A stretch of DNA of 32,000 nucleotides from Candidatus Harpocratesius repetitus (GTDB lineage: Archaea; Asgardarchaeota; Lokiarchaeia; Sigyniarchaeales; Promethearchaeaceae), in the NCBI GenBank assembly GCA_021498095.1, contig JAIZWK010000001.1, forward strand, positions 1,950,001-1,982,000, read 5' to 3'. The notes beneath the pieces are model-generated. The model had not been told where the DNA came from. It made no database searches and saw only the letters and a program-made list of their open reading frames with translations. Both the position numbers and the translations under genes were made by a program. Positions 15,179 to 29,748 of this stretch are shown here, in pieces. Within the stretch, counting starts at the first letter, position 1, and each line of letters opens with the position of its first letter.

Positions 15179-15418
15179 TTATTCAAAATCTTCTTTTTGA
15201 ATGGTAATTCGTTTCAATTCGCCTTTCGACGAACCTTTAGATTTTCGCGGCAGTTTGTTGATTAATTCTTTAGCCGCTTCTTCAACCGCCTTATCTAGGT
15301 ATTCGTGGACTAAATCTTTAGCTTCGCCAGAAATTCTTATTTTTTTGTCTCCTTCCACGAATAAATCCTTTACTTTCGATACACGAATATATTTTGTGTC
15401 ATAGCCCAAATTTATCAT
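15179..15418 (-). CDS. Divergent histone-fold protein (extended basic L2 loop, truncated alpha3)
   Basis: alpha1 VSKVKDLF, L1 RISGEA (cf. RVSDDA of HMfB), amphipathic alpha2, and RITIQKED (cf. RKTIKAED) with the R-x6-D pair kept. AGGAG upstream. Alternative TTG start at 15409. Confidence 0.75.
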   Translation of the reverse strand: MINLGYDTKYIRVSKVKDLFVEGDKKIRISGEAKDLVHEYLDKAVEEAAKELINKLPRKSKGSSKGELKRITIQKEDFE

Positions 15419-15484
15419 GCTCCTACTTGATAGTTTTCGAATCAGAACAAAGATCTGACTCTTAATAGAAATACTGAGGCCGTC

Positions 15485-15492
15485 TATTTAAA
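15485..15492 (-). promoter_or_regulatory. Putative TATA box (TTTAAATA) of the divergent histone gene
   Basis: TTTAAATA on the minus strand, about 67 nt upstream of ATG 15418. The same octamer precedes the other histone gene. Confidence 0.5.
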
Positions 15493-15935
15493 TATATGCT
15501 TATTTTAGCAATTTGAGTGAGAAAAGCGACAAAAATAACATAAAACTTTCAAATTTGCGTTGATATCTGTGTGATCTTCATGGAAAAATTGCTTTGAATT
15601 TCAGTTTTGAGATGAAGTCGTTATAAATTAGCAAAATTGGGAGTAAATTTCGATGATCTAAATGATACATGCTTCTTTGATTATTTAAATGTTTTGCCCG
15701 AATCGACAAAAGTTTTGACCAGATTTCCCACAAAGTTGCATATTTTGGCTCGTTTTTAACTTTAATAAAATGTGATATATTTCTCTAAAATGGTATTTTA
15801 AGCGACTTTCATATTTAGCTCTATTTTATTATTAAGTTTTATTTCCAATATAAGAAAAGATGTTCCAGATGAAATTTCTCTCCAGCAAATTTATGGATTT
15901 TCTGGTAGTAAATAAGTGTATTTTTTGTGGGAAAA

Positions 15936-16012
15936 TAATTGGCAATGGGCTATTTTTAATTAATTGGCAATGGGCTATTTTTAATTAATTGGCAATGGGC
16001 TATTTTTGATTA
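15936..16012. repeat. Tandem repeat, 3 x 25 bp (TAATTGGCAATGGGCTATTTTTAAT)
   Basis: Units at 15936-15960, 15961-15985 and 15986-16010 (the third has one A>G change). No spacers. Confidence 0.95.
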
Positions 16013-16614
16013 CGAAGGATCAATTCACTAACACCTCGGTTTGATTTTTTTTCCCCCATTTTCCGATTAATTGAAATATTCGCTTAATCTCTAAATCATT
16101 CGACTCATTAAAGAGAATTTTTGGGCTAAATCGGTGTGGAACAATGGCTATTCCTAAGATTTCTGGTTTATTTGTGATTGTAATATATGCCTGAAGTTGC
16201 TGTTCTAAAACCTCAGGTGTTTTAGGACCAGTTTAATGCACGCGAATCTCAATCACACTAATTATATCCTCTGCAGGATAAATCGATTGACTTTTGCCAC
16301 AAATAGTCTTGTATTTCCTTTATAACAACTGTAACTGCGGAGAGTACATTTTTTACCAGTTTGAGAGTTTTATGAAAAATATCAATTTATGCATATCCCT
16401 GCTTTTCCTTGTCAAAAGTTTTAAATTATTGTACGTTTTACTTATAAATTTCAATGAAATTGCCAACAAGATTTTTTTGAAGGATAGTTTTGAAATAATT
16501 TAAAAAATAAGGCTTCTCTTAATTGATCCTTTATTCTTAAAAATAGTCTGGTACAAAAATTTATATTTTGAATTACTTGATGTAATGAAAAAAAAACTTG
16601 AAAAATAAATTTGG

Positions 16615-29529: not shown

Positions 29530-29748
29530 ATGGCTAAGAAAAAGAGATCATTCGCCTGGTCACCAGTGCGAAAATTAATGAAGAAAAGTGGCGCCAACAT
29601 CGTTGCTCGAGATGCAGTTGAAGCCTTAATCATTGATTTAGAAAAAACCGCTACGAAATTAACCAAGAAAGCTTTGGGTTTTGCTAAACACGCAAAGCGG
29701 AAAAAGATTGCAAAAGAAGATATGGATCTTGCCATTAAATATTTGTAA
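29530..29748 (+). CDS. Archaeal histone (HMf-like fold, short basic N-terminus)
   Basis: Aligns without gaps to the HMfB fold: SPVRKLMK (alpha1), long alpha2, HAKRKKIAKEDMDLA (cf. HAGRKTIKAEDIELA). Confidence 0.93.
   Translation: MAKKKRSFAWSPVRKLMKKSGANIVARDAVEALIIDLEKTATKLTKKALGFAKHAKRKKIAKEDMDLAIKYL

What the first reader, a model, noticed from the sequence alone, without database searches (positions are those of the whole stretch)
15179..15418. Histone variant with a 9-residue basic Gly/Ser/Lys insertion in loop L2 and almost no alpha3
Seen: the distance from the L1 position (R of RIS) to the L2 Arg is 42 residues, against 33 in the window's other histone and in HMfB. The extra segment lies in PRKSKGSSKGELK. 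The protein stops two residues after the conserved Asp (EDFE*) and lacks the His49-equivalent. Known: His49, Asp59 and alpha3 build the four-helix bundle needed for (hyper)nucleosome stacking, and L2 contacts DNA. Alpha3-truncated prokaryotic histones bind DNA in non-nucleosomal modes. Inference: this protein cannot stack canonically. It may act as a capstone that limits hypernucleosome length, or as a DNA bridger. The K/S-rich loop resembles a histone tail placed internally and could be modified.
Basis: partly seen in the sequence, partly recalled or inferred. Interest (0 to 1): 0.7.

Follow-up and report, generated by a model that had tools for sequence, protein, structure and literature searches.

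The report
Known Lokiarchaeal HLoC short histone
This small gene encodes a real, highly conserved histone-like protein of Lokiarchaeia with a rigid extra basic loop and almost no third helix, but a 2026 preprint already lists this exact protein under the name HLoC, so only its function remains open.

Summary
Window 15179-15418 (minus) encodes a 79-aa protein, or more likely 76 aa from the TTG at 15409. It has histone-type alpha1-L1-alpha2, an RxTxxxxD motif (R70/T72/D77), a stop two residues after the Asp, and 9 extra residues between L1 and L2 compared with the window's canonical histone.

It is not new. The identical sequence (FW102, MCF2140031) is listed as an "HLoC-type histone" in Cho et al. 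2026 (bioRxiv 10.64898/2026.07.02.735847). That preprint reports HLoC at 0.2-2.4% of the proteome in four cultured Loki strains, then excludes it from further analysis. This scan also flagged the same family earlier in another genome (first-reader note only).

What I add:
- The "insertion" is the most conserved, fixed-length part of the family (LP[RK]K[ST][KR]G..KG.LKR.T). It is predicted to be a closed loop, not a tail.
- A handshake homodimer is predicted (0.78; best control 0.00).
- Natural tandem doublets fold as double histone folds.
- The domain is fused to TIR, SAP and LRR modules.
- The family is confined to class Lokiarchaeia.

Most likely it is an abundant, non-polymerising, DNA-binding histone-fold dimer. 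The capstone and modifiable-tail ideas have no support. DNA binding is inferred, not shown.

The parts
15179..15418 (-). HLoC-type histone-fold gene. 79 aa from the ATG at 15418; the probable true start is the TTG at 15409, giving 76 aa.
   Evidence: ORF and translation. Identical to FW102 MCF2140031 in Suppl. Table 3 of Cho et al. 2026. Start-codon comparison with orthologous loci.
15329..15343 (-). L1 motif K26-I-R28-I-S30. R28 is 40/44 conserved and is predicted to pair with L2 of the partner chain.
   Evidence: Conservation. Predicted contacts 28/29 with 72/73 of the other chain.
15215..15250 (-). Extended L2, residues P57-L68 (PRKSKGSSKGEL). This is the family signature. The 9 extra residues are about K59-E67.
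   Evidence: P57 and G62 invariant, G66 and L68 in 43/44, K61 97% basic. Fixed length in 113/120 domains. The relaxed hhalign extension puts an 8-residue gap in the canonical histones here. In the doublet model the equivalent loop has pLDDT about 95, with bridge-type residues R55 and L65 flanking it.
15188..15211 (-). RxTxxxxD motif (R70-I-T72-I-Q-K-E-D77), followed by only F78-E79 and the stop. This is the truncated alpha3.
   Evidence: DSSP helix 75-78 in the model. Motif definition from Schwab et al. 2024.
15485..15497 (-). Conserved archaeal BRE/TATA-like element ATATATTTAAATA, 67-79 nt upstream of the ATG.
   Evidence: Present in near-identical form upstream of most of the 11 orthologous loci compared. 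Promoter function is inferred.
15457..15468 (-). Conserved leader or initiator-proximal motif. The window has CTATTAAGAGTC; the consensus is TAATTAAGAATC.
   Evidence: Alignment by eye of the upstream regions of orthologues. Function unknown.
15420..15423 (-). GGAG ribosome-binding motif, 10 nt upstream of the TTG at 15409 and 1 nt upstream of the ATG.
   Evidence: Sequence. Comparison with L010.

Best explanation
The gene encodes the single HLoC-family protein of Candidatus Harpocratesius repetitus FW102. HLoC is a Lokiarchaeia-restricted, alpha3-truncated histone-fold protein.

Two chains are predicted to form the classical histone handshake dimer. The alpha2 helices cross at residues 44-45, and L1 of one chain pairs with L2 of the other through the R28/T72 pair.

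Each end of the dimer carries a rigid 9-residue basic loop (K59-E67, between flanking R58 and L68). It is held in shape by invariant Pro and Gly residues and lies next to the usual L1-L2 DNA-binding site. Conserved basic residues on the N-terminal strand and alpha1 (K9, R12, K15, K17) complete a basic face.

Because alpha3 and the His/Asp bundle residues are missing, the dimer cannot polymerise into a canonical hypernucleosome.

I infer that it is an abundant accessory chromatin protein, at about 5-12% of the canonical-histone signal, that binds DNA as a dimer or as some non-canonical oligomer. I also infer that the same fold has been reused as a nucleic-acid-binding module in TIR, SAP and LRR fusion proteins.

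Status of each step:
- Shown: sequence identity to a listed HLoC member, conservation, and taxonomic distribution.
- Predicted: fold and homodimer.
- Taken from a preprint: abundance.
- Inferred: DNA binding and the role of the loop.
For: Identity: the exact sequence is in the HLoC list of Cho et al. 2026. The organism and assembly are named.

Homology to histones:
- hhalign of the family against the genome's own canonical histones gives 78.5% probability, E 1.7e-5, in correct register.
- There is a weak CENP-X hit (E 5.5e-4).
- The nearest named language-model clusters all carry PF00808.

Fold:
- The natural doublet P0058 models at pLDDT 94, pTM 0.87.
- Its 10 best VIA matches are all single-chain double histone folds: 1f1e Z 7.9 (rmsd 3.3, 131 aligned), 1q9c Z 7.4, 9cvt Z 7.3, 7n8n Z 7.1, 1wwi Z 6.8, down to 1r4v Z 4.5. 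Unrelated rows start at Z 4.0.
- Foldseek's best hit is 1f1e, probability 0.99, E 0.011.
- The monomer model's weak matches (Z 3-4) are mostly histone folds, including HBb 8cmp, HTkC 9f2c and HLp 9qt0.

Dimer: complex prediction scored 0.78, with 0.00 as the best of 3 controls. That mark was reached by 20 of 30 proteins solved as pairs of one chain and by 1 of 23 solved as single chains. The runs agree in at least 98% of contacts, and partner pLDDT is at least 86. Contacts are those of a handshake. Histone dimers are well represented among solved structures, so this pass shows likeness to them.

Loop: conservation and fixed length.

Expression: HLoC was detected in 4 of 4 cultured Loki strains at 2.42, 2.04, 0.93 and 0.21% of iBAQ. 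The TATA element is consensus-like and conserved.

DNA link:
- One fusion has SAP domains and lies beside an SMC-like ATPase gene and a DUF3276 gene.
- Long acidic tracts recur next to the basic domain.
Against: - No DNA-binding experiment exists for any family member.
- Sequence-only searches do not reach curated histone models. PF00808 is absent for the window protein and appears in 1 of 44 members at E 0.043. There is no NCBIfam hit. The profile search against PDB sequences returns no histone.
- The monomer model is middling (pLDDT 79, and 57 in the loop).
- Structure matches have Z below 8, a range the tool warns can be reached by unrelated helical proteins.
- TIR and LRR fusions fit a protein- or ligand-sensing role as well as a DNA-binding one.
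- The abundance figures come from an un-reviewed preprint, and iBAQ is noisy for very small proteins.
Confidence: 0.6

Rival explanations
1. Capstone. HLoC heterodimerises with a canonical HLoA or HLoB histone. The mixed dimer has only one working four-helix-bundle side, so it terminates hypernucleosome growth.
For: alpha3 and the bundle residues are missing. The ratio of HLoC to canonical histones is roughly constant and low, 0.06-0.12, across four strains (computed). In the preprint's AlphaFold2 screen, the histone-interacting prey cluster 'H' contains all 11 Loki histones, including HLoC.
Against: All 13 natural doublets pair two HLoC-type halves. A confident homodimer is predicted. By DSSP, alpha2 has only about 22-24 helical residues, short like alpha3-truncated histones as Schwab et al. 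define them, and L2 is longer; both would strain the L1-L2 pairing in a mixed dimer. No heterodimer test could be run here.
Confidence: 0.1
2. Face-to-face (FtF) type tetramer. Two HLoC dimers close into a torus and wrap about 50-60 bp, as proposed for HTkC and the Haloferax FtF histone. One figure legend of the preprint labels HLoC a 'face-to-face histone'.
For: It shares the alpha3-histone features: a 4-residue alpha3, a short alpha2 and RxTxxxxD. The monomer model aligns to HTkC 9f2c (Z 3.0, rmsd 3.0, 56 aligned). Label in Extended Data Fig. 3.
Against: The FtF tetramerisation residues (the R48/N52 pair of the FtF profile) are not conserved at the candidate positions. Position 50 is K in 19/44 and position 54 is D15/A8/N7. 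The 13-15-residue longer L2 sits next to the region FtF histones use for dimer-dimer contact. The same preprint counts 'alpha3' and 'HLoC' as separate classes in Suppl. Table 1. The tetramer was not modelled here.
Confidence: 0.15
3. Not a chromatin protein. The histone fold serves as a protein-protein or ligand-binding adaptor, as in TAFs, NF-Y or CENP-S/X, and the invariant loop recognises a protein or small-molecule partner.
For: The best Pfam hit is CENP-X. The best monomer fold matches are TAF-type histone folds in SAGA and TFIID (6tbm_J Z 4.0, 6mzc_O Z 3.9, 4wv4_A Z 3.8). There are fusions to TIR and LRR signalling modules. Near-invariance of a loop is typical of a specific binding site.
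Against: Proteome-level abundance of 0.2-2.4% is high for an adaptor. The DNA-contacting R-T pair and the basic alpha1 face of histones are retained. There is a SAP fusion in an SMC-like neighbourhood. No conserved partner gene lies next to it beyond local synteny within its own family.
Confidence: 0.15

Closest known systems
HLoC histone family (Cho et al. 2026, bioRxiv 10.64898/2026.07.02.735847)
   Same: The sequence is identical to the listed FW102 member. It is 70% identical in the multiple alignment (71% by BLASTP) to L. ossiferum HLoC.1 (UYP44902.1). Length, motifs and taxonomic range match.
   Different: Nothing differs; it is a member. The preprint names the family, measures its abundance and then excludes it from analysis. 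The words 'loop' and 'insertion' do not occur in its main text. The main text and the supplementary text held here do not mention tandem doublets or TIR, SAP or LRR fusions, although its list includes two longer proteins of 206 and 229 aa.
alpha3-truncated histones: face-to-face HTkC (PDB 9F2C), bacterial dimers HBb/Bd0055 (8CMP) and HLp (9QT0) (Schwab et al. 2024, PMC11390915)
   Same: alpha3 is reduced to about 4 residues, alpha2 is short, the RxTxxxxD motif is present, and the protein ends 1-3 residues after the Asp. The fold matches are weak but recurrent.
   Different: L2 is 13-15 residues longer and carries an invariant P...G...G signature. The FtF tetramer residues are not conserved. 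None of the 17 categories in Schwab's Suppl. Table 2 describes this family. There is no significant sequence hit to these PDB chains.
Canonical archaeal nucleosomal histones (HMfB type; here the window's own HLoA.1-like gene at 29530-29748)
   Same: The alpha1-L1-alpha2 register, the L1 and L2 motifs and the handshake dimer are shared.
   Different: There are 9 extra residues in L2. The 10-residue alpha3 and the His at the end of alpha2 are absent, so there is no four-helix-bundle interface.
Single-chain double histone folds: M. kandleri HMk (1F1E), SOS histone domain (1Q9C), Melbournevirus doublets (9CVT, 7N8N), DUF1931 (1WWI, 1R4V)
   Same: Natural HLoC tandem doublets are predicted to adopt the same pseudo-dimer (Z 7.9 to 4.5).
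   Different: Sequence identity is only 8-19%. HLoC doublets have the extended L2 and truncated alpha3 in both halves. The window protein itself is a single domain.

Membership tests
HLoC family (Cho et al. 2026) | Sequence membership in the authors' list, or close similarity to HLoC.1 and HLoC.2 | tested here: met
   Identical to entry ASG_L_LOKI-FW102.MCF2140031. 70% identity in the alignment (71% by BLASTP) to the L. ossiferum HLoC.1 cluster.
HLoC family (Cho et al. 2026) | Restricted to Loki and related lineages | tested here: met
   32 of 400 Asgard genomes match. All strong matches lie within the organism's own class, and only 3 marginal hits (E 2e-5 to 9e-4) lie outside it.
Histone-fold superfamily | Helix-loop-long helix-loop-helix fold forming an antiparallel handshake dimer with L1-L2 pairing | tested here: met
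   These are predictions only. Homodimer score 0.78, best control 0.00, with alpha2 crossing at 44/45 and 28/29-72/73 contacts. The doublet model (pLDDT 94) matches double histone folds at Z up to 7.9.
Pfam PF00808 (CBFD_NFYB_HMF) / NCBIfam archaea_histone NF043032 | Score above the curated cut-off | tested here: not met
   The window protein has no hit. 1 of 44 family members reaches E 0.043. There is no NCBIfam histone hit. I therefore do not file it under these models.
alpha3-truncated histones (Schwab et al. 2024) | alpha3 of only 3-4 residues | tested here: met
   DSSP helix 75-78 and a stop after residue 79. Definition.
alpha3-truncated histones (Schwab et al. 2024) | alpha2 4-5 residues shorter than in nucleosomal histones | tested here: met
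   alpha2 is 22 residues in the monomer model and 24 in the doublet model. By my count on the sequence, S30 to P57 is 26 residues, against 30 for the equivalent stretch of HMfB as I recall it.
alpha3-truncated histones (Schwab et al. 2024) | RxTxxxxD motif in L2/alpha3 | tested here: met
   R70, T72 and D77 are conserved at 84%, 98% and 84%.
Face-to-face (FtF) histones | Torus-shaped tetramer of two dimers | not tested
Face-to-face (FtF) histones | Conserved tetramerisation pair (R48 and N52 of the FtF profile) at the end of alpha2 | tested here: inconclusive
   The candidate positions 50 (K 19/44) and 54 (D15/A8/N7) are not conserved. The equivalence across the long L2 is uncertain.
Nucleosomal (hypernucleosome-forming) archaeal histones | About 10-residue alpha3 plus the alpha2 C-terminal His that build the four-helix bundle | tested here: not met
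   The sequence ends 2 residues after D77, and the only His is H38.
Capstone histone variants | Attaches to a hypernucleosome end through one intact interface and blocks extension | not testable with these tools
   This needs heteromer modelling with controls or biophysics. Homotypic doublets argue against it.

The most novel reading that the evidence does not exclude
The invariant L2 loop is a new recognition element that turns the HLoC histone fold into a portable nucleic-acid sensor. Asgard archaea would then use it both as an abundant chromatin accessory protein and, as tandem doublets, as the sensing domain of TIR-, LRR- and SAP-containing proteins. That would make it a histone fold recruited into immune or signalling proteins.
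Probability: 0.15. Interest if true: 0.7.

Novelty: already known. Interest (0 to 1): 0.33.

Why it matters
Lokiarchaeia are among the closest cultured relatives of eukaryotes, and their chromatin is being studied as a model for the origin of nucleosomes. HLoC makes up about 5-12% of the canonical-histone signal in these cells. It is the one histone class in the recent survey that was set aside unstudied.

Three results make HLoC a defined target for biochemistry:
- Its unusual loop is rigid, invariant and fixed in length.
- It is predicted to pair with itself.
- The domain recurs in TIR, SAP and LRR proteins.

The finding itself (a histone fold with a truncated alpha3, specific to Loki) has already been made by others, so it is not a discovery.

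Tried and rejected
- Pfam, NCBIfam, and single-sequence and profile searches of PDB sequences gave no histone family above threshold. There were only a weak CENP-X hit and chance hits (AlkD2, YfiA, Hsp90).
- Foldseek of the monomer model found nothing with E below 1.
- hhalign with the narrow alignment A1 gave only 13-16% probability. The wider alignment A3 was needed.
- Searches for longer fused relatives in the word-indexed database found nothing, which is weak evidence. The fusions came from the exhaustive representative search instead. One of its hits, P0096, is a repetitive coiled-coil protein, and I discarded it as spurious.
- In IMG/VR viral contigs, 101 pattern matches were found but none was confirmed as a relative.
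- RNA evidence: no RNA holder was listed for the locus, so read mapping was not attempted.
- An exact look-up of the L. ossiferum orthologue found nothing on record.
- Literature searches by locus tag and by the name HPsC were uninformative.
- Rfam found nothing in the whole window.
- The bacterial-type terminator scan and an RNA fold downstream of the stop were not significant. Only T7 and T6 runs lie 40-60 nt after the stop.
- The antisense ORF 15201-15404 (+) is conserved only as a shadow of the real gene. I rejected it as a gene.

Full report
**1. What is in the sequence**

Window 15179-15418 (minus strand) is an open frame of 79 codons. Residues are numbered from the ATG.

The protein reads, in order:
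- a conserved N-terminal strand (Y6, K9, Y10, R12);
- a short alpha1 (about residues 13-19);
- an L1 with K26-I-R28-I-S30;
- a long alpha2 (residues 34-55 in the model);
- the segment L56-P-R-K-S-K-G-S-S-K-G-E-L68;
- K69-R70-I-T72-I-Q-K-E-D77-F-E, followed by the stop.

The distance from R28 to R70 is 42 residues. In the window's canonical histone (29530-29748, P0001, PF00808 E 5.7e-10) the equivalent positions I24 and R57 are 33 apart. The only His is H38.

The start codon needs a small correction. A GGAG lies 1 nt before the ATG but 10 nt before the in-frame TTG at 15409. The same-genus orthologue has ATG at that codon, and most homologues are 76 aa. The mature protein is therefore probably 76 aa.

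**2. It is a real, conserved gene family**

- The word-indexed search found 52 close homologues at 61-93% identity, all from Lokiarchaeia/Promethearchaeota records.
- The exhaustive representative search found 64 hits.
- In 400 Asgard genomes the family profile matched 32. These include 13 of 13 genomes of the organism's own family and several other families of the same class. One large family of the same order had only 5 of 135, all 5 genomes of one genus. Outside the class there were only three marginal hits.
- The organism's own genome has one copy, plus eight PF00808 histones.

**3. The "insertion" is the core of the family, not a tail**

In a diverse 44-sequence alignment:
- P57 and G62 are invariant;
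- G66, L68 and T72 are present in 43 of 44;
- position 61 is K/R in 97%, position 65 is basic in 88% and position 58 is basic in 88%;
- position 60 is S/T in 77%;
- position 63 is acidic in 70%.

The spacing between the LP and the KR.T is identical in 113 of 120 domain instances. The exceptions are halves of tandem doublets that are 3-4 residues shorter or 4 residues longer.

In the high-confidence doublet model the loop has pLDDT about 95. DSSP marks single bridge-type residues at both flanks, R55 and L65 of P0058, which are equivalent to R58 and L68 here. I read this as a closed loop of 9 residues (K59-E67). That is exactly the length excess over canonical histones.

Compared with alpha3-truncated histones, which have a shorter alpha2, the excess is about 13-15 residues. 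The model's residues 9-78 align to 57 residues of HTkC.

**4. Is it a histone fold?**

Sequence models alone do not establish this:
- There is only a sub-threshold CENP-X hit (E 5.5e-4).
- PF00808 is hit by 1 of 44 members at E 0.043.
- NCBIfam gives nothing relevant.
- A profile search of PDB sequences returns no histone.

Profile-profile comparison does give support. The diverse family alignment against the genome's eight canonical histones scores 78.5% probability, E 1.7e-5, in the correct alpha1-L1-alpha2 register. Extended at a relaxed threshold, with low per-residue confidence, KRIT..ED aligns to RKK....D and one 8-residue gap lies opposite S60-E67.

Structure prediction agrees:
- The monomer model is middling (pLDDT 79). 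Its weak matches (Z 3-4) are mostly histone folds, including HBb, HTkC and HLp.
- A natural tandem doublet (P0058) models at pLDDT 94, pTM 0.87.
- The doublet's ten best matches in an exhaustive structural comparison are all single-chain double histone folds: 1f1e Z 7.9, 1q9c Z 7.4, 9cvt Z 7.3, 7n8n Z 7.1, 1wwi Z 6.8, down to 1r4v Z 4.5. Unrelated proteins begin at Z 4.0.
- Foldseek also ranks 1f1e first (probability 0.99, E 0.011), and its next 30 or so hits are fused or doublet histone pairs.

These Z values are below the level the tool regards as safe for helical proteins. The argument therefore rests on the consistency of the hit list and the gap to the unrelated rows.

**5. Dimer**

The homodimer prediction scored 0.78, with 0.00 as the best of three controls. 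That mark was reached by 20 of 30 proteins solved as pairs of one chain and by 1 of 23 solved as single chains. The runs agree in at least 98% of contacts, and partner pLDDT is at least 86.

The contacts are those of a handshake:
- alpha2 crosses alpha2 at residues 44/45;
- L1 residues 28/29 touch L2 residues 72/73 of the other chain;
- the N-terminal strands meet at R12.

Loop residues 57-67 are outside the interface, so they are free to contact something else. Histone dimers are common among solved structures, so this pass shows likeness rather than proof. The existence of tandem doublets made of two HLoC halves (13 examined) is independent genomic evidence for homotypic pairing.

**6. It is already known**

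Cho et al. [quoted passage not shown] They say it is peripheral in their similarity network, restricted to Loki and relatives, and "excluded from further analyses".

Their Supplementary Table 3 lists the exact 79-aa sequence of this window as FW102 MCF2140031. The organism is Candidatus Harpocratesius repetitus FW102, GCA_021498095.1.

Their Supplementary Table 1 reports HLoC detected in all four cultured Loki strains, at 2.42, 2.04, 0.93 and 0.21% of total iBAQ. That is 0.06-0.12 of the canonical-histone signal.

One figure legend calls HLoC a face-to-face histone, but the table counts "alpha3" and "HLoC" as separate classes. The words "loop" and "insertion" do not occur in the main text. It is the only paper in the library that holds the term HLoC together with histone and Lokiarchaeum. 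The 17 categories of Schwab et al. 2024 do not include this family.

An earlier first-reader note of this scan flagged the same family in another genome.

**7. New context found here**

The domain occurs in several fusion architectures:
- as tandem doublets alone;
- behind an N-terminal TIR domain and an acidic linker (three proteins);
- behind SAP domains (one protein);
- as a single domain followed by LRRs and Cys-rich motifs (one protein).

Several members carry long poly-acidic tracts.

The SAP fusion lies downstream of an SMC-like ATPase gene and a DUF3276 gene. A TIR fusion lies near a small GTPase gene.

The window gene has a consensus-like TATA element (ATATATTTAAATA) and a conserved leader motif shared by most orthologous loci compared. 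Local synteny (small membrane protein, then HLoC, then an FAD-binding oxidase) is kept in several but not all of the compared loci of close relatives, and so says little.

**8. Interpretation**

The most likely reading (about 0.6) is an abundant, non-polymerising, DNA-binding histone-fold dimer. Its two L1-L2 ends are enlarged by a rigid basic loop, and R58-K59-S60 resembles a second copy of the RKT-type L2 motif.

- Shown: identity, conservation and distribution.
- Predicted: fold and dimer.
- Reported by others: abundance.
- Inferred: DNA binding and the role of the loop.

Rival readings are a capstone acting through heterodimers (about 0.1), an FtF-type tetramer (about 0.15) and a non-DNA adaptor or sensor (about 0.15).

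**9. Verdict**

The family and this very protein are already in the literature, so novelty is "already known". Interest is modest. What remains interesting is that the function is open, together with the invariant loop and the TIR, SAP and LRR fusions.

Noticed in passing
window 15933-16012: Three head-to-tail copies of a 25-nt unit (AATTAATTGGCAATGGGCTATTTTT, 93-100% identical) lie in the long spacer upstream of the HLoC gene.
   Followed up: no
window 16000-16025 and 16521-16546: A 26-nt inverted repeat pair (81% complementary) brackets about 547 bp. The spacer between the HLoC gene and the next gene is about 1.2 kb here but about 550 bp in the same-genus locus L010, so this could be a small inserted element.
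   Followed up: partly
window 15457-15468 (minus) and orthologous loci L010-L019: A conserved motif (consensus TAATTAAGAATC) lies about 17-20 nt downstream of the TATA element in orthologues from several genera. It could be an initiator, a leader or an operator.
   Followed up: partly
window 29530-29748 (+): The window's canonical histone is nearly identical to L. ossiferum HLoA.1, with a short MAKKKR N-terminus. Elsewhere the genome encodes three long-tailed HLoB-type histones whose alpha3 is also short, ending 5-6 residues after the Asp (L003, L005, L007).
   Followed up: partly
L023:534-8175: The SAP-HLoC doublet fusion (724 aa) sits downstream of an SMC_N/AAA_23 ATPase (814 aa), an unknown 722-aa protein and a DUF3276 protein. 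This may be a DNA-related gene cluster.
   Followed up: no
L022:511-3162: A TIR-HLoC doublet fusion (421 aa) lies close to a divergently oriented Arf/Ras/Roc small GTPase gene. Schwab et al. describe Rab-GTPase-histone fusions in Lokiarchaeota. I did not test whether their histone part is HLoC-like.
   Followed up: no
proteins P0057, P0060, P0068 (C-terminal regions): Three doublet-containing proteins end in a similar unannotated module of about 50 residues after an acidic linker. It has no Pfam hit.
   Followed up: no
window 15201-15404 (+): A 67-aa antisense ORF lies inside the HLoC gene and appears conserved in relatives only because it shadows the real gene.
   Followed up: yes
protein P0014 (homologue in a JGI record): One HLoC homologue is annotated by its source as 'formaldehyde-activating enzyme involved in methanogenesis' and another as 'histone H3/H4'. 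The first is evidently a mis-annotation.
   Followed up: no
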